Part shown: in pieces, positions 3,661 to 18,603 of the stretch
Layout: the number at the start of each line of letters is the position of its first letter
Numbering within the stretch: the stretch's first letter is position 1
NCBI GenBank assembly: GCA_964416505.1
Contig: CAYQEJ010000004.1
Span: 59,331 to 123,330, forward strand
Origin: an uncultured Gammaproteobacteria bacterium
GTDB taxonomy: Bacteria > Patescibacteriota > Microgenomatia > Levybacterales > UBA12049
Reading direction: 5' to 3'
DNA: 64,000 bases
Translations under genes and position numbers: made by a program
Notes under the pieces: model-generated
The model's database searches: none
What the model saw: only the letters and a program-made list of their open reading frames with translations
What the model was told of the DNA's origin: nothing

Positions 3661-3712
3661 TTCTAAAAATGGATTATACCAAATACTAATTTATGTAGAG
3701 TATAATACTTTA

Positions 3713-5161: not shown

Positions 5162-6147
5162 TTTTTCCAATTTTGTGGAAGAAGAGGACTACTTAACTCA
5201 ACTTCTTGAAATTTAGGTTTTTGATGCCCCTTCTTCTTTGCCCATCCCCATGTCTTTATTAATCCCTTTTCCAAATCAGTTCTATCTTTATACGCCAAAT
5301 ACTTTTTACTTAATCTATGATCACTTATTGCCTCTTTTACTTCCTGCGGCCTTTCTGGAAGATGAATGGGATTAATTTTGGAATTAGATATTTTAGATAT
5401 TAAATTTGCTAATTCATTTACAGTGTAGACATTGTCTGAACCTATATTAAACGTCATTCCATTTACTTTATTTCCCAGACATTTCACCAAGGCATCAACT
5501 ACATCATCTATATATGAGAAACATCTTTTTTGATTTCCTTTTCCATAAATATAATAAGGTTTATTTGCAAGAATAGAATTCATAAAAATTGTCACTACGT
5601 TTCTATATGGATCCTTCATGTTCTGTCTGGGACCATAAACATTGTGAGGTCTTGCTACAACAAAATCAAAATTGTGAATTTTACTTAAAATTTTTAATGC
5701 ATCTTCAAATGCTAGTTTTGAAATTCCATATAAATCTTCCGGCTTAGGCGTATCTTTTTCTTTAAAAGGTATTTGAAGACTACCATAAACAGCTATGCTT
5801 GAAGTAAAAATGAATTTTTTCATTCCACTTCTTATTCCAGCTGTTAATACTTTAATGCTGCCGTCAAAATTTCTAGAAGTTATGTCTACAGGTGAAAATT
5901 GAGCTTTATTTTCTGCGGCATTTGCAGCAAGATGATATATAACATCTGGTTTATATTCTGAAAGAATTTTATCTATTTTTTTAAAATTTCTTATATCTAC
6001 TTTTACTAACTTAGCTTTTTTATTGCAATTTTCTAAACTTCCTCCAGAAAAATCATCTAAAATTAAAACCTTATGTCCTTTAACAATCAATTTATCAACT
6101 AAATGACTTCCTATAAATCCTGCTCCACCTGTAACTACTATCTTCAT
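5158..6147 (-). CDS. NAD-dependent sugar-nucleotide epimerase/dehydratase (short-chain dehydrogenase/reductase (SDR) family).
   Basis: The N-terminus has MKIVVTGGAGFIGSHLVDKL (a Rossmann GxxGxxG motif). A YxxxK motif is present. The length of 329 aa fits. Confidence 0.8.
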   Translation of the reverse strand: MKIVVTGGAGFIGSHLVDKLIVKGHKVLILDDFSGGSLENCNKKAKLVKVDIRNFKKIDKILSEYKPDVIYHLAANAAENKAQFSPVDITSRNFDGSIKVLTAGIRSGMKKFIFTSSIAVYGSLQIPFKEKDTPKPEDLYGISKLAFEDALKILSKIHNFDFVVARPHNVYGPRQNMKDPYRNVVTIFMNSILANKPYYIYGKGNQKRCFSYIDDVVDALVKCLGNKVNGMTFNIGSDNVYTVNELANLISKISNSKINPIHLPERPQEVKEAISDHRLSKKYLAYKDRTDLEKGLIKTWGWAKKKGHQKPKFQEVELSSPLLPQNWKN

Positions 6148-6860
6148 ATCTTAAACCTATACCTTATTATCGTTTCAAACATTTTAAGTCCTACTAATAT
6201 AGACTTTTTCAATGATCCTGTGATTTTTGATTGACCTACTCTTTCATTATAATGAACAGGAACTTCTATGATTGAATTATTATTTAATAGAGCGAGAACA
6301 ATAAATTCTGAAAGAAAATAAGATCCTCCTACCTTAAACTTCGGAATTATATTTTCAATTGATGATCTTCTCATTACCCTAAAAGTACAACCACAATCCG
6401 TAAGAGATATAAAAGGATTATAAAGAAATTGAATTATTCTTGCTAAAACAATGTTTCCTATCCTTAAAAATCCATGCATATTAGCATTTTTTTCTATAAA
6501 TTTAGAGTTCGTCCTAGTTCCTAGAACAATTTCATATTTATCGATATATCGAAGCAGTTTTAATAAATCATTTGCTGAAAATGTTGCATCTGGTTCGCAA
6601 AAAGCTATTAAATCCCCTTTTACTTCTTTTAATCCTCTTCTAAGTGCATTTCCATATCCTTGTTTTTTTTCAAGAATTACTTTTGCTTTTTTTAATTTTG
6701 CAATTTCTGAGGTTCTATCTTTTGAATTATTATCAATAACCAAAATCTCATCAATTATTTTTAGTTTCTTAAAATCTGATATTGCTTTACCAATATTTTT
6801 CTCTTCATTATAAGCTGGAAAAATTAAAGAAATCTTTTTACCTTTGTACATTTTTACCAA
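6144..6860 (-). CDS. GT2 family glycosyltransferase, polyprenol-phosphate sugar transferase-like (DPM1/ArnC-like).
   Basis: Contains ISLIFPAYNEEKNI and VIDNNSKDRTSEIA, the DxD-type GT2 signatures. The gene overlaps the epimerase by 4 nt, which indicates an operon. Confidence 0.75.
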   Translation of the reverse strand: MVKMYKGKKISLIFPAYNEEKNIGKAISDFKKLKIIDEILVIDNNSKDRTSEIAKLKKAKVILEKKQGYGNALRRGLKEVKGDLIAFCEPDATFSANDLLKLLRYIDKYEIVLGTRTNSKFIEKNANMHGFLRIGNIVLARIIQFLYNPFISLTDCGCTFRVMRRSSIENIIPKFKVGGSYFLSEFIVLALLNNNSIIEVPVHYNERVGQSKITGSLKKSILVGLKMFETIIRYRFKI

Positions 6861-8293
6861 ATAGTTACTATTACAGACTGAAAGATAAACACTTGAACAA
6901 TCTGCAGCAAAAGGAGCAGAAAAAATTGCTGATTACGCAATTTTAATTTATTGGTACTGAAATTTGCAACAGTAATTATTAAAAAAGGAACAAATGGTAA
7001 CCAAATTCTGGCTGTCTCTGCTCTCACGCTCCCGGAAAAATTTACTGCTAACAAAATTATCAAGAATGAGACTCCAATAGCGTCAATTTTTGAAAAATTA
7101 AATTTACTTTTAATTAACAATCTTACATCACTAAACGCACCTAATAGAAATAAAACAGATAATGGGATTCCAGCAAAAAGGAAAAAATCATATAGATCAT
7201 AGAAGAGCCATATTAGATATCCTCTTGTAGACTGAGCAGATTCATGTAGAAACATTATTTTTCTTACCATTTCTATAAAATCTAATCCTAATATAAAGAG
7301 AATAAAAATTGGAAATAAAATTCCTAGTAGAAAATATAATCCAAATCTAAAATGTATAAAAAAATTCTTTTTCTTTAAAAATTCCAGCAAAAATAAAATT
7401 AAAAAGAATAACAAGATCGGAAGGAAAGTTAATGTAAAAAAAGCTCCAATGAATAATACAAATCCAGAAATCACAAAATTAAATTTATTCATTAACTTGT
7501 ATCCTCTTAGAAAGTAATAAAGAGAAATACTAGTAAATAGAGGCATAAAGATATCTATAAGAGGAGAAAACATCAATACGCTCGGTATGAATAATGAAAT
7601 AAATAATGCATTTTTTGCTGCTTTTTTTCCATAGGCAATTTTAGCTGATCCAAAAATAAAGATACTATACAAAGATGCAATAAATGAAATAATTATTCCT
7701 GAAAATATTCCATTTGTCTTTTGAACGATGTCTAGCTGATTCCATACTAATGAAATATTTTGCTCTGAAGGCTGCATGCTTAAAACAAATTTTAAAAGCG
7801 GTTCAAAAGGCCTAAGAAATAAATCAAGCAAATAATAAAGTATTATTCCCCCAGGAGGGTGAAATCGTGCATACATGGGAAATCTTTCAATATTTGTTAT
7901 AAATTCCCTAATAAACTCATTCAAATTAACAATATTTAATGATGCAGTAAAATACCCACTAACTAATGGATTTATCGTTCTACCCAGCAATACCTCAATT
8001 CCTGCTCTGTTAAAAAACAAAAAAGTTATTTGAATAAAAAATCCTATTAAAGTTAAAAATAAAAGCTTAGTTAAAGTTATTTCTTTAAATCTAACAAAAC
8101 AAATTAAAGTAATTAAGGATACCAAAAAGGGTGCCCAAAATTTTAAAAAATTAAAACTCGGCAGATATGTCCATCTCCAATCAGGAGAATATGGTGCTGG
8201 ACCAAATAAAAAAGGACTGAAATTAATTGAAATAAGAACCAGCAGAAAAATGGTAAAAAGAAAAACAAAATACAAGGACTTTGATTTATTCAC
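6854..8293 (-). CDS. Polytopic membrane protein immediately downstream of the major pilin gene. It may be an O-antigen-ligase-like (Wzy_C/TfpO-like) or GT-C oligosaccharyltransferase.
   Basis: 479 aa with about 12 hydrophobic helices. Its position mirrors pilA-tfpO arrangements. No catalytic motif could be verified by eye. Confidence 0.3.
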   Translation of the reverse strand: MNKSKSLYFVFLFTIFLLVLISINFSPFLFGPAPYSPDWRWTYLPSFNFLKFWAPFLVSLITLICFVRFKEITLTKLLFLTLIGFFIQITFLFFNRAGIEVLLGRTINPLVSGYFTASLNIVNLNEFIREFITNIERFPMYARFHPPGGIILYYLLDLFLRPFEPLLKFVLSMQPSEQNISLVWNQLDIVQKTNGIFSGIIISFIASLYSIFIFGSAKIAYGKKAAKNALFISLFIPSVLMFSPLIDIFMPLFTSISLYYFLRGYKLMNKFNFVISGFVLFIGAFFTLTFLPILLFFLILFLLEFLKKKNFFIHFRFGLYFLLGILFPIFILFILGLDFIEMVRKIMFLHESAQSTRGYLIWLFYDLYDFFLFAGIPLSVLFLLGAFSDVRLLIKSKFNFSKIDAIGVSFLIILLAVNFSGSVRAETARIWLPFVPFLIITVANFSTNKLKLRNQQFFLLLLLQIVQVFIFQSVIVTIW

Positions 8294-8353: not shown

Positions 8354-8815
8354 TTAGCGGGAGTTTGTGATTGTTTCTCCATTTTCAGGAGTCATTGCTG
8401 CAACTGTTACTCTATTATTTGCATCTTTTACTACGCTATATCCTGTTGTATATGTAGTACAGCTTGTTACTTCAGCACCATTGTTTACTTGAGGATCAAC
8501 TGGTAGAGCTGGGATGTATGTTGTTAATAGGTCAGTGCAAATATCAGCTTTTCCTGCACCACTACCAATTTCCTGTACTGTAGTAGTTATTCCTGCTGGA
8601 AGTACACCTTTGTGATCTGCTGAATATGCACCAATTGCATTAAGGATCTGAGTTACGTCACTTTTTCTCTTTGTGTTGTTTGCTTGTCCGAATTGTCTTG
8701 CTGGATTAATTGCGATTAAAACAATTGAGAGGAGGATTGCTAAAATTCCGATTACGACTAAAAGTTCTATTAATGTGAATCCTGAATTTTTCTTGAAAAC
8801 TTTTGGGCAGTTCAT
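8354..8815 (-). CDS. pilA: Major type IV pilin (PilA-like).
   Basis: Class III signal peptide ...KNSG|FTLIELLVVIGILAIL with Glu at +5. Two Cys lie in the C-terminal D-region. The length is 153 aa. Confidence 0.85.
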   Translation of the reverse strand: MNCPKVFKKNSGFTLIELLVVIGILAILLSIVLIAINPARQFGQANNTKRKSDVTQILNAIGAYSADHKGVLPAGITTTVQEIGSGAGKADICTDLLTTYIPALPVDPQVNNGAEVTSCTTYTTGYSVVKDANNRVTVAAMTPENGETITNSR

Positions 8816-8874: not shown

Positions 8875-9714
8875 TTAATTAGCTTCAGAATTATTTTCCC
8901 CAGTTCCACTATTTGATGAAAAATTTGACGAAAAATCTGGAGAAATTGCTGGTGAATTTGATGGCGCTATTACAGAAGGAACAGGAGCCGCTGGGTTATT
9001 AACCGGTAAAGCACTAGTTGGTTTTGGTGCCGAAAAAATATATTTATATAAAACAAATACCAGAATTAAAATAAGAAAAACAAAAACACCTGTTAACATA
9101 TAAAGCCTTTTGTTATCTTTTTTATTTTTCTCATTTGATTGCGCAAGCTGAGCCTGATCCGTGAGTAAGCTATAGGCTCTAAGATCTGGAACCTTATCTA
9201 AGATCAAACCAAGATCAAGATTGTTTTGTAAATTTGGCATAACTTCCATACAAGCTGAAAGAGGAATCACTGAGCTTACAACGAATCCAGAATCGACAAA
9301 CGCATTCCTAACAGCATCACATAGCTCCCTATTCGCAGCGGTAATCTTTGTCTTCTTAGTAAATTTCGATTTCTTGCTCAAGTAATCTTGAAATGGAACC
9401 AATTCTAAAAAATCTTGAACATTTTGATCTATCTGAACAGTACCATCAGTAAAATCTTTATCGAAAGTTACTGTTGTGGAAAGAAGAATTACAATATTCT
9501 CAGGAATTATTTTATAATTTGACACCAATGATTGAATCGCTGTCTCTATCTTTTTTTTGCTTATAACTTCAAGATCGCTAATCATATCCGGAGGAAAATC
9601 CACACCTACCGGAGAAGACAATCCGTGGTCATAAAAAAATCCTCTATTATTTTCTAGATAAAATATTCCTGTGGGTCTTTTTGGTAATTCTTTTTTTAAT
9701 TTATCTCTTTCCAT
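8875..9714 (-). CDS. Bitopic membrane protein within the pilus operon, with a cytoplasmic N-domain, one TM and a Pro/Ser-rich tail. It may play a PilM/PilN-like assembly role.
   Basis: A single TM helix (LYMLTGVFVFLILILVFVLY) follows a roughly 195-aa soluble domain. The C-terminal PxxP/S-rich region follows the TM. The gene sits between the minor and major pilin genes. Confidence 0.25.
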   Translation of the reverse strand: MERDKLKKELPKRPTGIFYLENNRGFFYDHGLSSPVGVDFPPDMISDLEVISKKKIETAIQSLVSNYKIIPENIVILLSTTVTFDKDFTDGTVQIDQNVQDFLELVPFQDYLSKKSKFTKKTKITAANRELCDAVRNAFVDSGFVVSSVIPLSACMEVMPNLQNNLDLGLILDKVPDLRAYSLLTDQAQLAQSNEKNKKDNKRLYMLTGVFVFLILILVFVLYKYIFSAPKPTSALPVNNPAAPVPSVIAPSNSPAISPDFSSNFSSNSGTGENNSEAN

Positions 9715-10064
9715 GAAGTAACAGTTAATTGATTATTTGTATTCGATGTCTGGACTTGGACTTTCCGAATTGTATTCGAAAAAGTAGCTGCACTAGTTAT
9801 CGTACCACTATTTACTACTATTACAACAGATCCACCATCAATACTCATAGTCTCTCCTGTATACGAAGGGTCACGAATCAACCTAAGTAACGCATTTTCA
9901 GCTCCTGTCTCTGCCATATAATATGCGGTAGTCCCCTGATCTACGCTACTAGTTGAGATTGCATTATTTAAAACAACCACCACGACTCCAGTAATTATCG
10001 CTAGGGAAATTGCCATAAAAAAAAGCAAAGTTATCAGCGCATTTCCTTTTTGAGATCTAATCAT
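9696..10064 (-). CDS. Minor pilin-like protein (PilX-like, atypical leader).
   Basis: The N-terminus MIRSQKG|NALITLLFFMAISLAII is a prepilin-like hydrophobic helix but lacks Glu at +5. Confidence 0.5.
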   Translation of the reverse strand: MIRSQKGNALITLLFFMAISLAIITGVVVVVLNNAISTSSVDQGTTAYYMAETGAENALLRLIRDPSYTGETMSIDGGSVVIVVNSGTITSAATFSNTIRKVQVQTSNTNNQLTVTSWKEIN

Positions 10065-10570
10065 CTAAGTCCTCCTGTAGTCTTAAAATTCACGACTTCT
10101 TTTCCTGATCTTCTATTTGCTTCTGAAGTTAAGGTATAAGAAATTTGTAATATATCTTTCCCATTGGAATCGCCCTCTATCCTTAGAAAAGAGAGATTCG
10201 ATACTTTTGTTTCATTGCTATTTAATTGGTCAGATGTGCCAGTAATAGAATTTTCTAGAATTAAATTCCCATCGTCTAATCCGTAAGATATATTCTGACT
10301 ATTAGCTACAATTGTCATAGCAGATCCTGAAGCACCTATTAGAGAAGGAATTGTTATACTTGATGCTCTTGACACATCATACCTAAATCTTTCTGCAATA
10401 TATCTTCCATCTACATTTACAGACGAAGTTGCTTGCGATTCTAATTGTAAATCAAAAACTGATCCATACATCTGAAGAGTTACTGCCAAAAGTATGCTAA
10501 ATATTCCCATATAAATGAGCAACTCTATTAAGGTGAATCCTTTTTTAACTTTAAATATTTTTTTAATCAT
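10061..10570 (-). CDS. Minor type IV pilin.
   Basis: KVKKG|FTLIELLIYMGIFSIL is a canonical prepilin cleavage motif with Glu at +5. Confidence 0.75.
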   Translation of the reverse strand: MIKKIFKVKKGFTLIELLIYMGIFSILLAVTLQMYGSVFDLQLESQATSSVNVDGRYIAERFRYDVSRASSITIPSLIGASGSAMTIVANSQNISYGLDDGNLILENSITGTSDQLNSNETKVSNLSFLRIEGDSNGKDILQISYTLTSEANRRSGKEVVNFKTTGGLR

Positions 10571-13530
10571 TAAGGTGAATAATTAACTCCAAAATCATAA
10601 AGAATTGGCGTCTGCGCTTGATCATTTGAGGACATATATATTTTATATCTCATACACTGTCCTGAATTTTCATAACCAGAGCCATCCGAATTCTTAGGAA
10701 GCTCTCCAGCAGCTGTAAAATAACTGCTTGATGTACCATCAGGCCCAACGTATACATAATTTGCGCCACCACACGATCCACCAACAGGATCTGCGATTGC
10801 CACCTGGTATGTTAATGTTGTTTGAGATGGAACGTTAACTGTAGAAAAAAATCTATTAAACATTGATTCTCCCGTTGCGTTAAAAGGCGCAGATTCAAAA
10901 GTACCAATTGATGAGTAAATCGCATCGTCAGGCCCTCCTTCAATTATTTTTAATTCATTTAGCGTAGTATTTGCCACCATGTAAACAAAATTATCACTAT
11001 CTGCTTCCGTTACTGAAGTTAAATCATTAAATCCTTGATCAAAATTTATTCCTGCACAATAAGTCGGCGAGGCCTCATTGGAACTATTCAAAACCTGGTA
11101 TTCTTCAGCATTATTTGAATTTCCAGTATTTCCATCTTTTCCAACTAAAACCACACGCTCTCCGTTTAGAACGGTTAAGGAACGTCTAGGATAAAGATCT
11201 GCATTAGCACCAGTTCCATAATAAAATCCACTCGTTGGACCATAGCTAGGAGATCCAGATGTGCCAGATAAAAATGCTGGAGCAGTTTTATTCGACGTAT
11301 TAATTACATAGAATTGCTTACTATCGGGCACCCCATTGTTATCCTTGTCGACTCCTCCATTTGATGAAATATAAGCTCTAGTTCCATCTGACTTTGCAAA
11401 TACTGAATTAGCTGCTTCTTCGGTAAACTGCTGAGAATTAAAATCAAGTCCGCTTACAACTTTCCAGCTAGCATCTCCACCTGAAATTGCACCGCAAGTG
11501 TTTTCTGCGCTTCTCGCAGTAGATGGAACAGTTGACACATCAACTATTTCAAATTCTCGGTCAGTTACCCCTCCTACGGCAACGTAAACGTATGTATTCA
11601 CTCCAACTTTAACAGGATATATATCATTTGTGGCATAAAGCTCTATATTTCCACCATCAGAACAGTCAGGGTGAATTGGGGTTGTAGTTGCCCAATTACT
11701 GCCACTTTGGCCTAAGGAATATTTCGCTGCTGAAGAAGTACCCGGATCACACTCATACCCATCCAACTGTATTCTGCAACCTTGCATATCAAGCCCGCTT
11801 GAAGTAGATTTTGTATCAATATTACTTAAATCAAAAATGTATAAAAATCCTCCTGAAGCCACATAACCTTTATTATCATAAACAGCTAATGATGTTGCCC
11901 CATAACCAAAAGGTGATCGGTCATAGGAATCATCATTAAAATAAACCTTAACAGTCGCCCAATCAAGTGAAAAATCACGAGTGGTATCACTCGCTACATC
12001 AATAACTCTAACTCTAAAATTCGAATTTGAAAAATCAGCATCGGCCCATGTTCTTCCCCAGTTATCGGTTGACCCTCCTAAAGAATAGGATACTTCTCCT
12101 GTTGTTAGGTTTGCAGTTGTCTTTGCAGTAGTCCAAGTAGATCCCCCATCCCACGAAAGCTGCACGCAAATCTTCGGGCTCCCCGTAGTAGAATCTGCCT
12201 TTGCATCAAGCCTTACCTCTATACCATTGATCGTGGATCCTGATGGAATATTGACGCCATAATTATAATACCTATGCTTGTCTTTATCTGCGCCCGTACA
12301 ATTCGTCCCAGTACCATTTCCAGAGTTGGTATCTACAGCGAAAGAATTATTATCACTATATGCTCTTGTCGGGTTCGTCGCGTAACCATCTCCATCTCCC
12401 CCAGTATCAGATGCATTTGAGGTTGGATTTAAAAATCCGGTATCTGTAGGAGCGTATGTGGAATAAATTTTTGTGTTAAAAAAAGTCCAGTATTTAAAAA
12501 TTTTATTTATAGGATCTTGATATTCACCAGTATTTGAACTGTTATTCGATGGATCTCCGTCATCCACCAAAACAGCAATTACTTCTTTATTAGGAAGATT
12601 CGTTCCCATAAGAGCATAAGTTTTACCCGCTGAAGATTTATAATACTTAATGTCTGTTGTCTTGAAATTATTATCTAAACCAGTTCCCGTTTGTGGAGAA
12701 TATCCTCCTGAAAACTCAGAAGAATTCATGGTAAATTTACCCGCCAAAACAGCTGAAGGAGTGCTTGTATTTGCCGTCACAGTAACATATGCCATTTTTA
12801 TAGAATTCGAAGTTGTAGGAGACGTAGCAACATAAACATTATTTGGAATACTTACAGAAGAACTAGCAGTAGCAGCAACAGCAACGGGTGGACCATCAGG
12901 AAGATCTATCGTGGTTGCAGAAAATGCCGGAGAACACCACTTAGCTTTGTTATCATTTATCAATTTCAACTCTCCTCCCCCTGTGTTAGTTACTTGAATA
13001 TTACTTGCAGTTCCAGAATTAAACTGAGATGAGGTAGTTTCTGTATATGAGAGATTTTTATATCTAGTAAAGTACGAGGTAGAACTAACATTTGACACAA
13101 GCGGAGTATTCCAGCTAACAGTTGTTACAACTTTTTTTGTTGATGGATCAACTGTTCCTCCAGAATTTACAATACCTCCACTGGAGTTTCTTTGCGCATC
13201 TGAGACATCAACTGAAATTGAAAAACCCTCAACTGCCTGGGCGCCTGATGTAAGCACGTACCTTCCATTGGAAATAACTGCATGGTAACTCCCATTTGCC
13301 GGAATATTACTCCATCCTCTTTCCGCTATGCTTCTTACTGCTTCTTGTGTTTCTTTTAAATAGGTTGTTGCCTGAAGTCTTTGCTCCTGCTGCGCTCTTC
13401 CTCCTCTTCCTGCTGCAAGCCCTGTAAGAAGAGCGGGTAAAATTAAAGTTGCAAGTCCGATAGCAATTAGAAGCTCAACTAACGACTGTCCTTTTTGACT
13501 TCTAAATTTTATCAATTTCCTTAAATTCAT
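10570..13530 (-). CDS. Giant pilin-like protein (986 aa) with a class III signal peptide; a putative modular minor pilin or tip adhesin.
   Basis: The N-terminus MNLRKLIKFRSQKG|QSLVELLIAIGLATLIL has Glu at +5. The remainder is Ser/Thr/Gly/Asn/Tyr-rich and predicted beta-rich. The gene lies between minor pilin genes. Confidence 0.7.
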   Translation of the reverse strand: MNLRKLIKFRSQKGQSLVELLIAIGLATLILPALLTGLAAGRGGRAQQEQRLQATTYLKETQEAVRSIAERGWSNIPANGSYHAVISNGRYVLTSGAQAVEGFSISVDVSDAQRNSSGGIVNSGGTVDPSTKKVVTTVSWNTPLVSNVSSTSYFTRYKNLSYTETTSSQFNSGTASNIQVTNTGGGELKLINDNKAKWCSPAFSATTIDLPDGPPVAVAATASSSVSIPNNVYVATSPTTSNSIKMAYVTVTANTSTPSAVLAGKFTMNSSEFSGGYSPQTGTGLDNNFKTTDIKYYKSSAGKTYALMGTNLPNKEVIAVLVDDGDPSNNSSNTGEYQDPINKIFKYWTFFNTKIYSTYAPTDTGFLNPTSNASDTGGDGDGYATNPTRAYSDNNSFAVDTNSGNGTGTNCTGADKDKHRYYNYGVNIPSGSTINGIEVRLDAKADSTTGSPKICVQLSWDGGSTWTTAKTTANLTTGEVSYSLGGSTDNWGRTWADADFSNSNFRVRVIDVASDTTRDFSLDWATVKVYFNDDSYDRSPFGYGATSLAVYDNKGYVASGGFLYIFDLSNIDTKSTSSGLDMQGCRIQLDGYECDPGTSSAAKYSLGQSGSNWATTTPIHPDCSDGGNIELYATNDIYPVKVGVNTYVYVAVGGVTDREFEIVDVSTVPSTARSAENTCGAISGGDASWKVVSGLDFNSQQFTEEAANSVFAKSDGTRAYISSNGGVDKDNNGVPDSKQFYVINTSNKTAPAFLSGTSGSPSYGPTSGFYYGTGANADLYPRRSLTVLNGERVVLVGKDGNTGNSNNAEEYQVLNSSNEASPTYCAGINFDQGFNDLTSVTEADSDNFVYMVANTTLNELKIIEGGPDDAIYSSIGTFESAPFNATGESMFNRFFSTVNVPSQTTLTYQVAIADPVGGSCGGANYVYVGPDGTSSSYFTAAGELPKNSDGSGYENSGQCMRYKIYMSSNDQAQTPILYDFGVNYSP

Positions 13531-14051
13531 CAGTTTACCCCCGTAATAACACCATACCTATTTATAGTTATAATTATTTCTTTATTAATTGCTATCGATC
13601 TGAGCGTTATAGTATTTGATGATGATGAATAACCTACCATTTCTCCACTTAGGGCTGAGAAAAGAAGAGTATTACTCGGTAATGTAGTACTCTTAATTTC
13701 TAGATCAGAAGGCAAATCTACAGTAAAATTAGTCGAATCTCCGCTGTTGTAGGTTCCACCATGAAACAAAATATATTTATTTGACATAAAATATATTCCG
13801 TAATTATCAGCTGAAGCTCTTCCCTCCGTGTTTCCAGTCATCGCCTTTATTTGCTGAGCTCTAATATCAGAAACAAGCTTATCTGTATTTGAAGTTTCAG
13901 AGGCGGATCCCTGAGCACGCAGTAAATTGAAAGTTATAACTCCAAAAAGGACCATCATAATTGAAGAAGCAAGAAGAATCTCAATAAAACTAAAACCTTT
14001 TTGAGACTTAAATTTCTTTAAATGTATAAATCTTGGCATACTATCTAGCAC
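13530..14051 (-). CDS. Minor type IV pilin (GspH/PilE-like).
   Basis: FKSQKG|FSFIEILLASSIMMVLFGVI is a prepilin motif. Confidence 0.75.
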   Translation of the reverse strand: MLDSMPRFIHLKKFKSQKGFSFIEILLASSIMMVLFGVITFNLLRAQGSASETSNTDKLVSDIRAQQIKAMTGNTEGRASADNYGIYFMSNKYILFHGGTYNSGDSTNFTVDLPSDLEIKSTTLPSNTLLFSALSGEMVGYSSSSNTITLRSIAINKEIIITINRYGVITGVN

Positions 14052-15096
14052 TCACCTGACCAATTAGTCCATATATTGGAGCAATTATTGAAAGCATAAC
14101 TCCACCTACTAAAAGACCTACAACTACAAGCATTACTGGCTCAAGAAGTGTAGTTAAATTTTTCAAACTATTAGTAACTCTATAGTCCTGCTGTTCAGAA
14201 ATATCTTGCATAGATTTATCTAAGGTTCCTGTCTTTTCTCCAGCTTCAACAATTTTTATGATTATTGATGAAAATATTTTCTTCTGGTTTTTGAAACCTT
14301 GCGATAAATTCTTTCCTCCCAAAACCGTATCTTCGGCATATTTTATGGCTGCTTCTATGTCTTTTCTTCTTACAACTTGAATCGATAAATCAAGAGCATT
14401 TGTAATCGTAATTCCTGAAGACAAAAGTAAATACATACTTCTTGAAAATCTTGCCAAGTCGATCTCCTTAACTAAATTAGAAACGACTGGAGCCATATAA
14501 AAGACATTAAGAATTCTTCTTCTCTGAGCCTTGAATAATAAAACTCCAAAAATTAAACTCACCAACATAACTACCAAAAAAGGCACTGTATAATCCAACA
14601 AGAGATTGGAAGCAGATATAAGAATCTTTGTAGGAAGAGGAAGTTTTACATTTAATCTAGAAAATACTGTTGAAATTTTTGGAATTACGACAGTTAAGAT
14701 CAAAAGCAAAACACCGGCAAAAACTGCAAGAATAACAACGGGATAAATCATTGCAGATTTTACCTTATCGTTAAATTCCATATCTTTTTGAATCTGCACT
14801 TTTAAATCTTTAAGAGTTACATCCATTGTTCCTGCTTCTTCTGAAGCACGCAAAACATTAACTGTAACCTTATCGAAAATTTCAGGAAATTTTGCAAAAG
14901 AGGAATATAAATGTTGACCCTGCATAAGATCTTCCCTCATTGTTTCTAAAACTCTTTTGGTATTCCCTTTTGAATCCTCAAGCAAAGAATCTATACTCTC
15001 GAGAATTGGAATTCCAGCAGTAATCATGGTAGATAGATTTCCCAAAAGGGCCAATTTATCACCACCCTTTAATGTAAGCTTTTCATTTGGTGTCAT
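14041..15096 (-). CDS. pilC: Type IV pilus assembly platform protein PilC (GspF family).
   Basis: Two GspF-like repeats contain 3 TM segments. The gene is adjacent to pilB. Confidence 0.8.
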   Translation of the reverse strand: MTPNEKLTLKGGDKLALLGNLSTMITAGIPILESIDSLLEDSKGNTKRVLETMREDLMQGQHLYSSFAKFPEIFDKVTVNVLRASEEAGTMDVTLKDLKVQIQKDMEFNDKVKSAMIYPVVILAVFAGVLLLILTVVIPKISTVFSRLNVKLPLPTKILISASNLLLDYTVPFLVVMLVSLIFGVLLFKAQRRRILNVFYMAPVVSNLVKEIDLARFSRSMYLLLSSGITITNALDLSIQVVRRKDIEAAIKYAEDTVLGGKNLSQGFKNQKKIFSSIIIKIVEAGEKTGTLDKSMQDISEQQDYRVTNSLKNLTTLLEPVMLVVVGLLVGGVMLSIIAPIYGLIGQVSAR

Positions 15097-15097
15097 T

Positions 15098-16780
15098 TTA
15101 TGCTGATTCTACTTTGGTAACTCTAAGAACTTCTTTTATAGTGGTCTTACCTTTTACAACCTTATCTAACCCGTCATCAAGCATAGTAGTCATTCCATCA
15201 GCTATCGCCTGCTTTGCAATTTCATCAGAATCACTTTTTGATGTAATAAGTTCTCTGATTTTTTCTGACATATCAATTACTTCAAAAATTCCAATTCTTC
15301 CACTATAGCCAGTGGCATGACAAACCTTACAACCTTTACCTTCATATACCCTAATCTGATCTCCAGGACCGAAGTATTTTGTAACTGCATCATCAGGAAT
15401 ATCTTTTAAAACTGCTTTTCTACTTATCACTATCTGAGCTTTACAAGAATCACAAATTTTCCTAACAAGTCTTTGAGCAATTATCACGTTCACGGTTGAA
15501 GCAACTAAAAAGGGCTCTATTTTCATATCAATCAAGCGTGGAAGGGTAGTAGCAGCATCATTGGTGTGAATCGTAGATAAAACCAAATGCCCGGTTAAAG
15601 CTGCATTTACGGCAATTCCTGCAGTTTCGCTGTCCCTAATTTCTCCTACAAAAATAACATTTGGATCTTGTCTTAAAATAGAACGAAGTCCGCTTGCGAA
15701 CGTTAAATTTGTTTTAGGATTTACTTGAATTTGATTAACACCTTTTATTCTGTATTCAACAGGCTCTTCAATAGTAGTTATATTTTTCTCTCTAGTATTA
15801 ACAATTTTTAAAATTGCATATACCGATGTTGTCTTACCAGATCCTGTAGGACCTGAGGACAGAATCATTCCGTAAGATTTATTAATTGCATTAGTCACTT
15901 TAGTTAAATCTCTTTCGTTCATACCAAGATCCTGAAGAGTGAATTGTCTAAATTTAGAAGACAAAAGTCTCATAACTATTTTTTCCCCTTCAGTAACTGG
16001 AATTATAGAAACACGAATATCCAGATTCTCCTCGTCTACCACAATTCTCATTTTTCCATCCTGCGCACTCAAATGCTCATCTGTTCTAAGACGAGATAAA
16101 ACCTTAATTCTTGTTACGATTCTGTCGTGAAGTTTTTTATCAACATACAAAACATCATGTAAAATTCCATCAATCCTAAATCTAACAAGTGAATTTTTTT
16201 CCTCTGGCTCTATGTGAACATCTGATGCTTTATCTCGATAAGCATAGGTGATAAGCAAATCTACAATTTTTGCAATCGGTGCCTCATCGAGCGTAGAAGC
16301 CGTCCTTGTTATTTCCGCTTGAAGCATTTGATCAAATGTTTGCTGAAGATCTTTTCTATAGAGCTGAAGCACATTTTCTATATCTTTTTCCGTTGCCATG
16401 TAGACGGTCACTTTTTGACCTGTCTTTTTGCTTATCATCTCAGGAAGTTTTGTATTAACTGGATCTGCAGCTGCAAGCTTTATACCATCTGCATCTTTTG
16501 CAAAAACAATTGCTTTGTGTTTCCTGGCCAATCTCTCCGGAACAATTCTATATACCCCTTCTGAAATCGTAATATTAGACAAAACTACAAAAGGATATTT
16601 AATATGATTCGCTATTAGTTGACCAAGCTTATCATCTGGAATTACATCTTTTTCCATTATTGCTTGCTGGAGAGGAATTCTTCCATTCGCCGCAAATACC
16701 AAAACATCCCTCATGGTCTTAGTGTCAACTAGACCAGACTGAAGAAGCAGTTGTTGTATCTCAATATCGGGCAGAAGCAT
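15098..16780 (-). CDS. pilB: Type IV pilus assembly ATPase PilB (GspE family).
   Basis: Walker A GPTGSGKTT is present, along with GspE Asp/His boxes and a tetra-Cys motif CDSCK...CKVC. The length is 560 aa. Confidence 0.9.
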   Translation of the reverse strand: MLLPDIEIQQLLLQSGLVDTKTMRDVLVFAANGRIPLQQAIMEKDVIPDDKLGQLIANHIKYPFVVLSNITISEGVYRIVPERLARKHKAIVFAKDADGIKLAAADPVNTKLPEMISKKTGQKVTVYMATEKDIENVLQLYRKDLQQTFDQMLQAEITRTASTLDEAPIAKIVDLLITYAYRDKASDVHIEPEEKNSLVRFRIDGILHDVLYVDKKLHDRIVTRIKVLSRLRTDEHLSAQDGKMRIVVDEENLDIRVSIIPVTEGEKIVMRLLSSKFRQFTLQDLGMNERDLTKVTNAINKSYGMILSSGPTGSGKTTSVYAILKIVNTREKNITTIEEPVEYRIKGVNQIQVNPKTNLTFASGLRSILRQDPNVIFVGEIRDSETAGIAVNAALTGHLVLSTIHTNDAATTLPRLIDMKIEPFLVASTVNVIIAQRLVRKICDSCKAQIVISRKAVLKDIPDDAVTKYFGPGDQIRVYEGKGCKVCHATGYSGRIGIFEVIDMSEKIRELITSKSDSDEIAKQAIADGMTTMLDDGLDKVVKGKTTIKEVLRVTKVESA

Positions 16781-16869: not shown

Positions 16870-18603
16870 TTGGAAACAATGAAGCTAATCGCATTTATAG
16901 TTTTTTTAATTGCAGGAATTTTTATTACATATCCCTGGATCTTTCATTTAAGTGATTTCGTAACTGGGTATGGAGACAATTTCGTTTATACATGGATACA
17001 TACTTGGGTAATTGAATCTATAATAAATGGAAATATTACACAAATTTTCAATACTAATATTTTCTATCCTTATCAGGTAGGGCTTTCAGTCTCTGATCCA
17101 AATATATCAACAGCAATCCTCTCAATACCCATTTACTTGTTAACTAGAGAGCCAATTTCGACTGTAAATTTCACAACAATATTTTCTATAGTTTTCCTAG
17201 GGTTTTCCATTTACTTACTTTCTTATTATTTAACAAAAAATTATCTAGCTTCTATTTTTTCCGGACTGCTCATAGCATTTTCACCGGCATATCTTAGTTT
17301 CTATGGACATTTACAAATGATGTCTATTGCCTTTACTCCACTTTCTATTCTTTGTTTTTTAATTTTTATAAAAACCAAAAAACAAAAAAATCTAATAATT
17401 TCTTTATTTTTATTTCTTTTACAAACTTATAATAATTTTTTGGGAGGCTACTTTATTCTTTTTTCCTATTTGATCATTTTTTTATTTAATTTAATTGGAA
17501 ATAAATCAAAAACAATTGGTCTGATTTCCAAAAAAAATATTATTATTTTTATTTCTTTTTTTGCACTAATTATTCCAGTCGCTAATTCATACTTTTCGGT
17601 TTCCAAGGAGTTTAATTACAAAAGAGATATTAGAGATGCAGTTCATTTCGCAAACCAACCTGAAGATTTTCTCCTAACTATGGAATTTAGCCGTTTACAA
17701 AAGCCCTTAAAATCACTTCCTTTTAATCAGGTTTCACAAAATTCAGAATTTAAACCTGCATTTTTAGGATTTATATTTAGTCTTTTGTTCTTATTCTCAA
17801 TTTTTTATTTTTTTAAAAATTTAAAAAGGAAAAACATATATTTAAATTCATTTATGACTATAGCTGCTCTCGGATTTGTCTTAAGCCTAGGCCCCGTACT
17901 TCATCTTGGTAGGCAAACCATACATAATCCTATTATTCCTCTCCCTTATGCTCTTTTTTATTATATTGTTCCCGGATTTCAAGGATTCAGGAATTCAGCG
18001 AGATGGGAAGTTCTCATGCTTATCGGGGCTTCCGTTGTAATAGCTGTTATTCTTAGCAAAGTTTTTGGAAAATTTAGTACCAAGAAACAATTCATAATTT
18101 ATTCTCTTCTAACATTAGTGTGCATAATTGAATTAAATCTTCCTCTTAAGTTCGTAAAAATGCAGTCAATAAAAAATATTCCCCAAGAATACCATTGGCT
18201 CGCAACAACTCCTGAGGATACAAAACTAATTGAAATGCCGGTTTACAACTGGAACATGTTCCCCTATGGCAATCAAGAACTTTGGAGACTTTATTATTCA
18301 ACGAGTAATTTCAGAAGAACCGTAAATGGAACTGGAGGATTTACTCCACCTCCTTGGCAGGAAATGGCATATGAACTAGATGAAAATTTCCCAAATGAAA
18401 AATCCATCACCAAACTAAAGAATCTCAACCTCAACTATATTCTTGTTCATAAAAATGAATTTGATAAATTAAATAGTGATAAATTTACAATAAATAAAAA
18501 AATTATACCTAGTGGAGAATTCGTTATTAGAAATTTAAATAAAAATCCAGAATTAAAACTTATCAACAGATTTGGGGATACGTATATTTACAGCCTTAAT
18601 TAG
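16870..18603 (+). CDS. Polytopic membrane protein with a C-terminal soluble domain; a putative GT-C-like glycosyltransferase. The likely ATG start is at 16879.
   Basis: About 12 TM helices. An early loop carries TGYGDNFVYTW. A roughly 150-aa C-terminal extracytoplasmic domain follows. Confidence 0.3.
   Translation: METMKLIAFIVFLIAGIFITYPWIFHLSDFVTGYGDNFVYTWIHTWVIESIINGNITQIFNTNIFYPYQVGLSVSDPNISTAILSIPIYLLTREPISTVNFTTIFSIVFLGFSIYLLSYYLTKNYLASIFSGLLIAFSPAYLSFYGHLQMMSIAFTPLSILCFLIFIKTKKQKNLIISLFLFLLQTYNNFLGGYFILFSYLIIFLFNLIGNKSKTIGLISKKNIIIFISFFALIIPVANSYFSVSKEFNYKRDIRDAVHFANQPEDFLLTMEFSRLQKPLKSLPFNQVSQNSEFKPAFLGFIFSLLFLFSIFYFFKNLKRKNIYLNSFMTIAALGFVLSLGPVLHLGRQTIHNPIIPLPYALFYYIVPGFQGFRNSARWEVLMLIGASVVIAVILSKVFGKFSTKKQFIIYSLLTLVCIIELNLPLKFVKMQSIKNIPQEYHWLATTPEDTKLIEMPVYNWNMFPYGNQELWRLYYSTSNFRRTVNGTGGFTPPPWQEMAYELDENFPNEKSITKLKNLNLNYILVHKNEFDKLNSDKFTINKKIIPSGEFVIRNLNKNPELKLINRFGDTYIYSLN

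What the first reader, a model, noticed from the sequence alone, without database searches (positions are those of the whole stretch)
10570..13530. Giant (986 aa) pilin-like protein with a canonical prepilin leader: candidate modular pilus tip adhesin
The N-terminus MNLRKLIKFRSQKG|QSLVELLIAIGLATLIL has a basic leader, a Gly at -1, a Glu at +5 and a hydrophobic helix, which is a textbook class III signal peptide. The mature protein is about 960 residues, however, against about 130 for an ordinary pilin. The remainder is rich in Ser/Thr/Gly/Asn/Asp/Tyr with scattered Cys pairs, a composition suggesting beta-helix or lectin-like modules. It sits between two ordinary minor pilins and would plausibly be presented at the pilus tip. 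For a host-attached bacterium it is a prime host-binding candidate.
Basis: partly seen in the sequence, partly recalled or inferred. Interest (0 to 1): 0.7.

Follow-up and report, generated by a model that had tools for sequence, protein, structure and literature searches.

The report
Giant modular pilus-tip pilin of Microgenomates
The 986-residue gene is real: it is a conserved pilus subunit of an ultra-small (CPR/Microgenomates) bacterium whose small pilin stem carries a seven-bladed propeller with a swappable sugar-binding-like module, so it most likely lets the pilus grip surfaces or host cells, an uncharacterised variant of the known "modular pilin" idea.

Summary
An uninterrupted 986-aa ORF lies at 10570-13530 (-) with leader MNLRKLIKFRSQKG|QSLVE. 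The Gly(-1) and Glu(+5) are conserved in at least 90% of 74 aligned homologues. It sits between two small pilins in a PilB-PilC-pilin-BIG-pilin-pilin-TM-major pilin operon, and that order is conserved in about 60 Microgenomates species. It is not an artefact: hundreds of full-length homologues share 55-74% identity.

The AlphaFold2 model (pLDDT 84) shows four parts:
- a 59-residue N-terminal helix plus a beta-sheet head, as in pilins;
- a C-terminal beta domain.

Positional orthologues come in several sizes: ~650 aa (plain LVIVD-type propeller), ~800 aa (no module), ~985 aa (module) and up to 1073 aa. At the same propeller loop the insert is present, absent, replaced by a Pfam CBM_4_9 domain, or moved to another loop.

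Best reading: a GspI/ComGE-slot minor pilin displayed at the pilus tip, binding glycans through an exchangeable module. Function is inferred, not shown. It is not a PilY1 family member and not the same family as Saccharibacteria PilX2.

Novelty: a new variant of the known modular-pilin kind. Interest is moderate.

The parts
13489..13530 (-). Leader peptide, residues 1-14 (MNLRKLIKFRSQKG), ending in Gly(-1)
   Evidence: Read directly from the sequence. Leader length and sequence vary in homologues, but the terminal Gly is present in at least 90%.
13318..13488 (-). Pilin alpha-1 helix, residues 15-71, with Gln(+1), Glu(+5) and a hydrophobic N-terminal half
   Evidence: The AF2 model has a helix at residues 13-71. 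E19 is present in at least 90% of sequences. There are weak N_methyl and ComGE matches.
13051..13317 (-). Pilin globular head, residues 72-160: antiparallel beta-sheet following alpha-1
   Evidence: AF2 strands at 80-155 with pLDDT 75-92. Family members give sub-threshold matches to ComGE (21 of 27) and GspI (3 of 27).
12919..13050 (-). Short beta linker region, residues 161-204, ending at invariant Cys199
   Evidence: AF2 secondary structure. The region is conserved in the ~650-aa orthologues as well.
12460..12918 (-). Beta-propeller, N-terminal part (residues 205-357; about blades 1-2 by strand counting)
11926..12459 (-). Inserted ~175-aa jelly-roll module (residues 358-535), with Asp-box-like SWDGGSTW and the Cys411/Cys455 pair
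10906..11925 (-). Beta-propeller, C-terminal part (residues 536-875), with long Cys-containing loops (585/594, 623/679)
   Evidence: The loops are absent from the ~650-aa orthologues. At 66% identity it is, with the module, the best conserved region.
10573..10905 (-). C-terminal beta domain (residues 876-986) with invariant Cys920/Cys959
   Evidence: AF2 strands at 883-985. Shared with all orthologue size classes. No Pfam match.
13530..14051 (-). Upstream minor pilin, 173 aa (GspH/ComGD-like)
   Evidence: N_methyl 22.4 bits, above the cut-off. Sub-threshold matches to ComGD (E 2.1e-5) and GspH (E 1.6e-3).
10061..10570 (-). Downstream minor pilin, 169 aa
   Evidence: N_methyl 33.1 bits; TIGR02532 23.3 bits, above its cut-off.
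9696..10064 (-). Pilin-like protein, 122 aa, lacking Glu(+5) (G|NALIT); GspK/ComGG-like
   Evidence: Sequence. Weak matches to GspK (E 0.008) and ComGG.
8875..9714 (-). Conserved 279-aa single-pass membrane protein of the operon, unassigned
   Evidence: No significant family match. Syntenic in 50 of 75 loci.
8354..8815 (-). Major-pilin-like protein, 153 aa
   Evidence: N_methyl 35.9 bits. The GspG match (31.9 bits) is below its cut-off.
14041..15096 (-). PilC/GspF platform protein
   Evidence: Pfam T2SSF, E 8e-45.
15098..16780 (-). PilB/GspE assembly ATPase
   Evidence: Pfam T2SSE, E 1e-126. TIGR02538 PilB scores 524.6 bits, below its 675.65-bit cut-off.

Best explanation
The gene encodes a modular type IV minor pilin of a Microgenomates (Levybacteria-like) CPR bacterium.

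Architecture. A prepilin-type leader and a GspI/ComGE-slot pilin module (residues 1-160) anchor the protein in the pilus core. Grafted onto this are a disulfide-stabilised seven-bladed LVIVD-type beta-propeller and a C-terminal beta domain. A ~175-residue CBM-like jelly-roll module is nested in a propeller loop.

Proposed mechanism.
1. The protein is inserted in the membrane through the Sec pathway and processed by prepilin peptidase.
2. It joins the 173-, 169- and 122-aa minor pilins in the complex that primes pilus assembly.
3. It therefore ends up at the distal tip of the filament built from the 153-aa major pilin.
4. CPR cells have no outer-membrane secretin, so a ~100 kDa head can be carried at the tip.
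5. At the tip, the propeller and its exchangeable module bind a surface ligand, most likely a glycan on a host cell or substrate.

Shown here: the ORF, the conserved leader motif, the operon context, the predicted domain folds, and the modularity and insert swapping among orthologues. Inferred: cleavage, tip location, and the nature of the ligand.
For: - The ORF and leader motif are conserved.
- The operon order PilB-PilC-173aa-BIG-169aa-122aa-279aa-major pilin is found in about 50-65 of 75 species loci. It recurs around the 648-aa orthologue.
- The gene order and sub-threshold family matches follow the GspH-I-J-K / ComGD-E-F-G pattern. ComGE is hit by 21 of 27 pilin modules, and the 122-aa protein lacks Glu5, as GspK does.
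- In orthologues the same loop carries a Pfam CBM_4_9 domain (26.4 bits, above the 25.9 cut-off). In others it carries nothing or a divergent copy, and in two species the module sits in a different loop.
- A rough NJ tree interleaves these insert states, which implies repeated gain and loss.
- There are 10 invariant Cys, and the composition is that of an extracellular protein.
- Literature: CPR bacteria lack PilQ, have PilD, and have MdbA-like disulfide machinery (PMC6744442). Modular pilins are proposed to be tip-exposed (PMC8179133). In Saccharibacteria TM7x, deleting the propeller-bearing pilin PilX2 roughly halves host binding without abolishing the filaments (PMC11623550).
Against: - No experiment or proteomic datum exists for this family.
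- The window protein's N_methyl score is below the Pfam cut-off, and its +1 residue is Gln.
- No prepilin peptidase gene was found among the window ORFs scanned against Pfam.
- The propeller is more conserved than the pilin module and than the neighbouring minor pilins. That is unusual for a host-specific adhesin and fits a structural or assembly role equally well.
- About 20 of the 65 full-length orthologues placed in the tree do without any insert, so the module cannot be essential to the core function.
- I could not inspect model coordinates, so helix-to-head packing, blade numbering and disulfide pairs are inferred from secondary structure and alignments.
Confidence: 0.55

Rival explanations
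1. It is mainly a structural or assembly component, that is, a PilY1-like primer, cap or anti-retraction factor. The conserved propeller nucleates or stabilises the minor-pilin tip complex and controls extension and retraction. Ligand binding is secondary or absent.
For: - The gene is a fixed member of the operon across Microgenomates.
- Its propeller is as conserved as PilB and PilC, and more so than the other minor pilins.
- About 20 of the 65 full-length orthologues placed in the tree lack any binding-type insert.
- By established knowledge, PilY1 with the minor pilins primes T4aP assembly (Treuner-Lange 2020, cited in PMC11623550).
Against: - The repeated gain, loss and replacement of CBM-type modules at a surface loop is the signature of a ligand-binding surface under diversification, not of a purely structural part.
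- In TM7x, the propeller pilin PilX2 is dispensable for filament formation (PMC11623550).
- The two roles are not mutually exclusive.
Confidence: 0.2
2. It is a pilin-anchored cell-surface protein that is not incorporated into filaments. The class III-like N-terminus would serve only as a membrane anchor, or as a pseudopilus stub, displaying the propeller at the cell surface.
For: - The N_methyl score is sub-threshold and the +1 residue is Gln.
- The very large head could hinder polymerisation.
- TM7x PilX1 and PilX2 were likewise not predicted to have PilD signals (PMC11623550).
Against: - Gly(-1) and Glu(+5) are conserved in at least 90% of homologues while the leader itself varies. This argues for selection on processing and on the Glu5 contact used in filament assembly.
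- The gene is translationally coupled inside the minor-pilin block.
Confidence: 0.1
3. It is a pilus-borne enzyme. The propeller plus CBM-like module would form a glycoside hydrolase- or lyase-like unit that the pilus delivers to a host cell wall.
For: - A propeller combined with CBM inserts is a common glycosidase architecture. Foldseek lists V. cholerae neuraminidase (1kit) and a beta-xylosidase among its matches.
- The propeller has many invariant Asp, Glu and Arg residues.
- Modular pilins with peptidase modules are catalogued (PMC8179133).
Against: - The best propeller matches are non-catalytic seven-bladed WD40-type folds.
- There is no match to any glycosidase family in Pfam or NCBIfam.
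- The Foldseek TM-scores are at most 0.25.
Confidence: 0.07
4. It is a DNA receptor of a competence-type pilus, analogous to ComZ. The tip propeller would capture extracellular DNA for uptake, feeding the nucleotide-auxotrophic CPR cell.
For: - The pilin module resembles ComGE-class competence minor pilins, though below threshold.
- CPR T4P are linked to competence in the literature (PMC6744442).
Against: - The protein is acidic to neutral (K+R 6.7%, D+E 9.5%), with no obvious basic surface.
- The exchangeable inserts are carbohydrate-binding types.
- The YncE match is a generic fold match.
Confidence: 0.06

Closest known systems
Modular type IV pilins, e.g. Streptococcus sanguinis PilB (vWA module) and PilC (ConA-like lectin module) (PMC8179133, PMC9934059)
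   Same: - A small N-terminal pilin module with a class III signal peptide carries bulky functional module(s).
- It is encoded among the pilus genes of a bacterium without an outer-membrane secretin.
- It is proposed to be tip-exposed and ligand-binding. One module here is lectin/CBM-like.
   Different: - There is no sequence relationship.
- The grafted part here is a seven-bladed propeller with a nested jelly-roll and a further beta domain, about 825 residues in all, not a single C-terminal module.
- None of the modules has a Pfam signature, so the InterPro-based census of modular pilins would miss it.
- The insert is exchanged among orthologues.
Nanosynbacter lyticus TM7x PilX2 (propeller-bearing minor pilin) and PilX1 (jelly-roll-bearing minor pilin) (PMC11623550)
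   Same: - It is a CPR type IV pilus minor pilin with a C-terminal heptabladed propeller (PilX2) or a lectin-like jelly-roll (PilX1).
- A glycan-binding adhesin role is proposed for both.
- PilX2 deletion reduces host binding but not filament formation.
   Different: - PilX2's propeller is described as RCC1-repeat type. No RCC1 match occurs here, and the orthologues carry LVIVD repeats instead.
[quoted passage not shown]
- Here both fold types are combined in one protein.
PilY1 / PilC tip adhesins of T4aP (Pseudomonas, Neisseria, Myxococcus)
   Same: - It is a large (~100 kDa) protein with a seven-bladed propeller.
- Its gene sits inside the minor-pilin cluster.
- It is proposed to sit on the minor-pilin tip complex and to combine priming with adhesion.
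- The parts attached to the propeller are modular and variable.
   Different: - PilY1 is not a pilin. It has a Sec signal and docks non-covalently on the minor pilins, whereas here the propeller is fused covalently to a pilin module.
- There is no PF05567 match.
GspI / PilV / ComGE core minor pilins
   Same: - It holds the second position in an H-I-J-K-like minor-pilin gene order.
- The pilin module gives its most frequent matches, all sub-threshold, to ComGE and GspI.
- Glu5 is present.
   Different: - All matches are far below the family cut-offs.
- Ordinary members are ~100-130 aa with no extra domain.
Carbohydrate-binding modules of the galactose-binding-like jelly-roll fold (CBM32, CBM4/9/22, CBM6, CBM15; F-type lectins)
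   Same: - In some orthologues the same loop holds a bona fide Pfam CBM_4_9 domain.
- Like CBMs, it is promiscuous in multidomain secreted proteins and occurs in tandem arrays.
   Different: - It matches no existing Pfam family.
- Identity to the structural matches is 5-20%.
- It has its own strongly conserved motifs (GGDGNGY, DKDKHR, the Asp-box-like SWDGGxTW, NFRVR, RDFSLDW).
- No ligand is known.

Membership tests
Type IV pilin / class III signal peptide proteins (Pfam PF07963 N_methyl, TIGR02532) | Short hydrophilic leader ending in Gly, followed by a ~20-residue hydrophobic segment with Glu at +5 | tested here: met
   The sequence reads MNLRKLIKFRSQKG|QSLVELLIAIGLATLILPALL. G14 and E19 are present in at least 90% of 74 homologues.
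Type IV pilin / class III signal peptide proteins (Pfam PF07963 N_methyl, TIGR02532) | Profile match at or above the curated cut-off | tested here: inconclusive
   The window protein scores 16.7 bits against a cut-off of 21.2, and TIGR02532 is not reported. Some orthologues do carry a precomputed PF07963 hit (P0029; P0394 and P0451). The +1 residue is Gln instead of Phe.
Type IV pilin / class III signal peptide proteins (Pfam PF07963 N_methyl, TIGR02532) | Extended N-terminal alpha-helix followed by an antiparallel beta-sheet head (lollipop fold) | tested here: met
   The AF2 model has a helix at 13-71, then strands at 80-155 with pLDDT 75-92.
Type IV pilin / class III signal peptide proteins (Pfam PF07963 N_methyl, TIGR02532) | Cleavage and N-methylation by prepilin peptidase, and incorporation in a filament | not testable with these tools
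   No peptidase A24 gene was found among the window ORFs scanned against Pfam. PilD is reported as widespread in CPR (PMC6744442).
Type IV pilin / class III signal peptide proteins (Pfam PF07963 N_methyl, TIGR02532) | Encoded together with type IV filament machinery (PilB/GspE, PilC/GspF, other pilins) | tested here: met
   Synteny holds in about 60 species and in L076.
Modular type IV pilins (sensu Raynaud et al. 2021) | N-terminal pilin module plus at least one additional structural module not specific to pilus biology | tested here: met
   The protein combines a propeller, a jelly-roll module also found in non-pilin proteins and a C-terminal beta domain.
PilY1/PilC family (Pfam PF05567, IPR008707) | Sequence match to the PilC/PilY1 beta-propeller domain | tested here: not met
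   No Pfam hit other than N_methyl at E up to 0.1.
PilY1/PilC family (Pfam PF05567, IPR008707) | Non-pilin protein with a Sec-type signal that docks on minor pilins | tested here: not met
   The protein has a pilin-type N-terminus.
LVIVD-repeat beta-propellers (Pfam PF08309) | Profile match to LVIVD repeats | tested here: inconclusive
   The window protein gives no hit at E up to 0.1. Many ~650-aa positional orthologues carry a precomputed PF08309 hit. They align with the window protein across the propeller.
GspI / PilV / ComGE core minor pilins | Profile match above the family cut-off | tested here: not met
   The best match is ComGE NF041013: 15.9 bits for the window protein, with a best member E-value of 2.4e-6, against a cut-off of 49 bits. 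GspI is hit by 3 of 27 members. Only the gene order supports the assignment.
Carbohydrate-binding modules (CBM_4_9 PF02018 and related jelly-roll CBMs), for the inserted module | Sequence match to a CBM family | tested here: not met
   The window module has no Pfam match at E up to 1. The alternative insert of orthologue L034 does match CBM_4_9, at 26.4 bits against a 25.9 cut-off.
Carbohydrate-binding modules (CBM_4_9 PF02018 and related jelly-roll CBMs), for the inserted module | Beta-jelly-roll (galactose-binding-like) fold | tested here: met
   [not shown]
Carbohydrate-binding modules (CBM_4_9 PF02018 and related jelly-roll CBMs), for the inserted module | Demonstrated carbohydrate binding | not testable with these tools
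   This needs recombinant protein and glycan arrays or ITC.
TM7x PilX2-type pilins (RCC1-repeat propeller) | RCC1 repeats in the propeller | tested here: not met
   No RCC1 family hit. The PilX2 sequence itself was not available for direct comparison.

The most novel reading that the evidence does not exclude
The conserved tip pilin may work like a phage receptor-binding protein built into a pilus. A constant pilin-propeller scaffold would carry a hot-spot loop into which interchangeable glycan-binding cassettes are repeatedly inserted, lost or swapped. The states seen are the unnamed Asp-box jelly-roll, CBM_4_9, a divergent copy, or none. These swaps would set which host cell walls or substrates each Microgenomates lineage can attach to.

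As a corollary, the unnamed ~175-aa module, shared at 55-67% identity with secreted proteins of Chloroflexota, Actinomycetota, Acidobacteriota and Proteobacteria, would be a new and widespread carbohydrate-binding module family.
Probability: 0.35. Interest if true: 0.65.

Novelty: new variant of a known kind. Interest (0 to 1): 0.5.

Why it matters
Microgenomates are abundant, uncultivated ultra-small bacteria. How they find and hold on to partners is unknown, and type IV pili are the main candidate.

This family supplies a concrete candidate for the binding end of that pilus. It is conserved in nearly every pilus locus retrieved here. It has a predicted structure good enough to design constructs. 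It also has a natural set of insert variants (none, module, CBM_4_9, relocated module) that could be correlated with habitat or host.

It further shows that censuses of modular pilins based on domain signatures miss large families, because none of its modules has a Pfam model. Finally, it flags an unnamed, strongly conserved extracellular module that occurs in many phyla.

Tried and rejected
- A sequence search of the whole protein against PDB chains found nothing.
- A profile of the pilin module against PDB matched only the hydrophobic alpha-1 of T. thermophilus PilA and geopilins, not significantly. The head therefore cannot be assigned to GspI/PilV by sequence.
- Pfam and NCBIfam on the whole protein gave only a sub-threshold N_methyl or ComGE hit.
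- Pfam on the isolated module, the C-terminal domain and the linker gave nothing.
- Foldseek of the full model against PDB returned low-TM matches of no specific meaning (at most 0.25 normalised to the query): podophage nozzle proteins, DDB1, neuraminidase. It returned no pilin and no PilY1.
- The AlphaFold-database library was unavailable, so similar architectures in other phyla could not be surveyed by fold.
- The promoter/terminator scan of the operon found nothing above chance.
- No prepilin peptidase was found among the window ORFs scanned. The ribosomal-protein block at about 46-64 kb was not scanned.
- A frameshift or fusion artefact was considered and rejected on the full-length homologues.
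- A beta-helix or vWA content was considered and rejected on the model.
- Membership of PilY1/PilC was considered and rejected.

Full report
**1. Observation**

One search lists an ATG-initiated ORF at 10570..13530 on the minus strand.

It lies in a tightly packed minus-strand operon:
- PilB/GspE ATPase, 15098-16780 (Pfam T2SSE, E 1e-126)
- PilC/GspF, 14041-15096 (T2SSF, E 8e-45)
- a 173-aa pilin, 13530-14051
- the 986-aa gene
- a 169-aa pilin, 10061-10570
- a 122-aa pilin-like protein, 9696-10064
- a 279-aa single-pass membrane protein, 8875-9714
- a 153-aa major-pilin-like protein, 8354-8815

The start codon of the big gene overlaps the stop codon of the 173-aa gene by one base (TGATG), and a GGGGG run lies upstream. 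Its own stop codon likewise overlaps the next start by one base. This suggests translational coupling.

S+T+G+N+D+Y make up 52% of the protein, against 30% in cytoplasmic proteins of the window. There are 10 cysteines. The description is therefore accurate.

**2. Not an artefact, and not a lineage-private oddity**

A capped search returned 796 homologues. The best 120 are nearly all 955-1035 aa long, mostly cover 95-100% of the query, and are 55-74% identical. Where a source names them, the names are Levybacteria, Microgenomates or Patescibacteria 'type II secretion system protein' or 'PulG'.

In a 74-sequence alignment, mean column identity is 59%. All 10 Cys are invariant. Gly(-1) and Glu(+5) are kept in at least 90% of sequences, while the leader before the Gly varies freely in length and sequence. 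This is the pattern expected if processing and the Glu5 contact are under selection.

A scan of one genome per GTDB species found 75 loci, in Levy-, Woese-, Gottesman-, Roizman- and Shapirobacteria. Many third-party assemblies carry the placeholder title 'uncultured Gammaproteobacteria'.

In about 50-65 of those loci the same gene order recurs: PilB-PilC-pilin-BIG-pilin-pilin-TM protein-major pilin.

Typical identity to the window in the more distant loci:

| Protein | Identity |
|---|---|
| big protein | 55-60% |
| PilB | ~64% |
| PilC | ~57% |
| 173-aa pilin | 30-45% |
| 169-aa pilin | 35-45% |
| 122-aa pilin-like protein | 40-45% |
| 279-aa membrane protein | 22-30% |

Identity to the window protein by region within the big protein:

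| Region | Identity |
|---|---|
| propeller, C-terminal part | 66% |
| inserted module | 66% |
| alpha-1 helix | 55% |
| pilin head | 47% |

This is the reverse of the usual pilin pattern, in which the N-terminus is the conserved part.

**3. Architecture**

AlphaFold2 on the 74-sequence alignment gave mean pLDDT 84.3 and pTM 0.61. The model has a helix at 13-71, then strands at 80-155. This is the pilin arrangement of a long alpha-1 followed by a beta-sheet head. Everything after that, up to residue 986, is all-beta.

An exhaustive profile search split the protein into evolutionary units:
- Only a few 50%-identity clusters share the full ~990-aa architecture.
- A very large set of ~610-760-aa proteins matches profile positions 5-265 and about 715-988.
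- Positions 358-532 occur on their own in proteins of 231 to 3109 aa, at any position and sometimes in tandem. P0126 has three copies, and P0164 has 11 matched stretches.

Aligning two ~650-aa relatives shows what they keep and what they lack. They keep the pilin module, the linker ending at Cys199, a lean propeller and the C-terminal domain. They lack the 358-535 module and several long loops.

The four Cys shared with them are 199, 825, 920 and 959. The six extra Cys lie in the additions: 411 and 455 in the module, and 585, 594, 623 and 679 in the loops. Each addition therefore seems to bring its own disulfide (inference).

The ~650-aa proteins are also Microgenomates proteins. Many carry a precomputed Pfam PF08309 (LVIVD beta-propeller repeat) hit. 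One of them (P0390, 648 aa, Levyibacteriota) sits in exactly the same operon slot, and even downstream of the same SerRS-SecA genes as in the window (compare). The 986-aa protein is thus an elaborated positional orthologue of a widespread pilin-propeller protein.

**4. The inserted module**

- CBM4, CBM6 and CBM36

Identities are 5-20%.

The module has no Pfam model. It contains an exact Asp-box-like S-x-D-x-G-x-T-W motif (SWDGGSTW, residues 459-466). The identification of that motif rests on my own knowledge.

Outside the pilins it is found at 55-67% identity in unnamed proteins from Anaerolineae, Dehalococcoidia, Micromonosporaceae, Acidimicrobiia, Acidobacteria and Methylobacter. There it sits next to Ig-like, PKD, fn3, TIG, cadherin-like, Kelch, CBM_3, subtilase, M14 peptidase and lipase-like domains. 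It therefore behaves as a promiscuous extracellular accessory module.

**5. Insert swapping among orthologues**

I searched the ORFs of the 75 loci with HMMs of the whole protein and of the module, then aligned the exceptions. The standard site lies between the conserved strings KYWTFFNTKIY and NDQAPFGYG. Counts below are for the 65 full-length orthologues placed in the tree.

| State | Number of species |
|---|---|
| standard module at the site | 39 |
| no insert, clean junction, 793-852 aa proteins | 20 |
| unrelated insert (NGSFETG...YFDD) matching Pfam CBM_4_9 | 3 (L034, L041, L071) |
| divergent copy of the module | 1 (L035) |
| standard site empty, module in a different hairpin (between YYKSSG and GKTYAL) | 2 (L044, L067) |

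The CBM_4_9 match scores 26.4 bits for L034, above the 25.9 cut-off, and 22.7 bits for L071. In L071 the insert is flanked by Pro/Thr linkers.

A rough, unbootstrapped NJ tree of the scaffold, with the insert region masked, interleaves these states. This implies several independent gains or losses.

A recognised carbohydrate-binding domain occupies the same loop in some orthologues. That is the strongest indirect argument that this loop presents a glycan-binding function.

**6. Which pilin is it?**

By sequence only the hydrophobic alpha-1 matches solved pilins, and not significantly. Against NCBIfam, 21 of 27 pilin modules of the family give sub-threshold matches to ComGE, and 3 of 27 to GspI or XpsI.

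The upstream 173-aa pilin resembles ComGD and GspH. The 122-aa protein resembles GspK and ComGG and lacks Glu5 (sequence).

The gene order therefore mirrors GspH-I-J-K / ComGD-E-F-G, with the giant protein in the 'I' slot. In known systems these four form the priming complex that ends up at the filament tip. That statement is established knowledge, summarised in PMC8179133 and PMC11623550. The assignment here rests on gene order plus weak matches.

**7. Mechanism proposed, and status of each step**

- Sec insertion and PilD cleavage after Gly14: inferred. PilD is widespread in CPR (PMC6744442), but none was found among the window ORFs scanned.
- Disulfide formation outside the membrane: inferred from the invariant Cys. 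CPR encode MdbA-like oxidoreductases (PMC6744442).
- Assembly with the other minor pilins and display at the tip: inferred from the operon, from Glu5, and from the size of the head. CPR lack the PilQ secretin (PMC6744442), so a ~100 kDa head is not excluded sterically.
- Binding of a glycan ligand through the module, and possibly the propeller face: inferred from fold, from the CBM_4_9 replacement, and by analogy with TM7x. There, deleting the propeller pilin PilX2 halves host binding without abolishing filaments, and exogenous rhamnose blocks binding (PMC11623550).

I put about 0.9 on 'modular pilin-like component of this type IV pilus system'. I put about 0.55 on the full tip-adhesin, glycan-binding statement.

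**8. Rivals**

- A mainly structural or priming role, PilY1-like, fits the high conservation and the insert-less orthologues (0.2). It is not exclusive with adhesion.
- A membrane-anchored surface protein that never enters the filament (0.1).
- A pilus-borne glycosidase or lyase (0.07).
- A ComZ-like DNA receptor (0.06).

**9. Comparison with what is known**

The kind is known. Modular pilins were defined on S. sanguinis PilB and PilC and shown to be widespread, with CPR examples. The authors noted that many are missed because their modules lack signatures (PMC8179133). This family is such a case.

The nearest published functional analogues are TM7x PilX2 (propeller) and PilX1 (jelly-roll). 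[quoted passage not shown]

PilY1/PilC is a functional analogue but not a relative. There is no PF05567 match, and PilY1 is not a pilin.

The new elements are these:
- a pilin module fused covalently to an LVIVD-type propeller, conserved across a whole CPR superphylum-level group;
- a module nested inside the propeller;
- a hot-spot loop where binding-type modules are exchanged;
- the unnamed, cross-phylum module itself.

I found no paper describing this family.

**10. Verdict**

Novelty is a new variant of a known kind. Interest is 0.5.

Noticed in passing
window 11926-12459 (-); also P0126, P0128, P0129, P0164, P0226, P0238, P0255 and the hits: The ~175-aa insert is an unnamed extracellular module with no Pfam model. 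It recurs at 55-67% identity in secreted multidomain proteins of Chloroflexota, Actinomycetota, Acidobacteriota and Methylobacter. It is sometimes tandemly repeated: 3 copies in P0126, and 11 matched stretches in the 3109-aa P0164. Strongly conserved motifs include GGDGNGY, DKDKHR, the Asp-box-like SWDGGxTW, NFRVR and RDFSLDW. Such conservation across phyla is unusual for a binding module.
   Followed up: partly
window 3557-8293 and 16870-18603: Glycosylation-type genes flank the pilus operon: a PMT_2 GT-C glycosyltransferase (3557-5161), an NAD-dependent sugar epimerase/dehydratase (5158-6147), a GT2 (6144-6860), a 479-aa multi-pass membrane protein with no family (6854-8293) and a 577-aa multi-pass protein (16870-18603, weak DUF7657). 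The 479-aa gene is also found 0.7-1.4 kb beyond the start of the major-pilin match in five of the six closest relatives. This may be a pilin or surface-protein glycosylation system. The giant pilin is 22% Ser+Thr.
   Followed up: partly
window 9696-10064 (-): The 122-aa pilin-like protein has Gly(-1) but Thr instead of Glu at +5 (MIRSQKG|NALIT). GspK/PilX-class subunits that cap the tip complex show the same feature. It is conserved in 64 of 75 loci.
   Followed up: partly
window 8875-9714 (-): A 279-aa protein has a ~200-residue cytoplasmic part, one transmembrane helix and a Pro/Ser-rich tail. It is a fixed member of the operon (50 of 75 loci) but matches no PilM, PilN or PilO model or any other family. 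It diverges fast (22-30% identity). It may be an unrecognised alignment or platform component.
   Followed up: no
window 13489-13488 boundary (Gly14|Gln15): The predicted mature N-terminus is Gln in most family members, not Phe or Met. A free N-terminal Gln can cyclise to pyroglutamate, so it is unclear whether it is N-methylated like other pilins.
   Followed up: no
loci L001-L075: Many GTDB species-representative assemblies that carry this clearly CPR-type operon are titled 'uncultured Gammaproteobacteria', 'Pseudomonadales' or 'Saccharibacteria'. These titles look like placeholders or mislabels and should not be read as taxonomic distribution.
   Followed up: no
window 1-64000: GC skew is negative in 29 of the 32 2-kb bins (cumulative -4.9), and most genes are on the minus strand. 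A pronounced strand compositional disparity has been reported for a complete Microgenomates genome (title of PMC7143001; not read).
   Followed up: no
window 18630-20237 (-): A 535-aa membrane-anchored ORF with only a faint Kelch hit lies between the pilus operon region and secA. It has no detected counterpart in the 75 loci.
   Followed up: no
L071 (res 360-592 of its 1073-aa orthologue), L034, L041: In three species the insertion site holds a CBM_4_9-like domain instead of the standard module. In L071 the domain is flanked by long Pro/Thr linkers, as in cellulosomal or glycosidase CBMs.
   Followed up: partly
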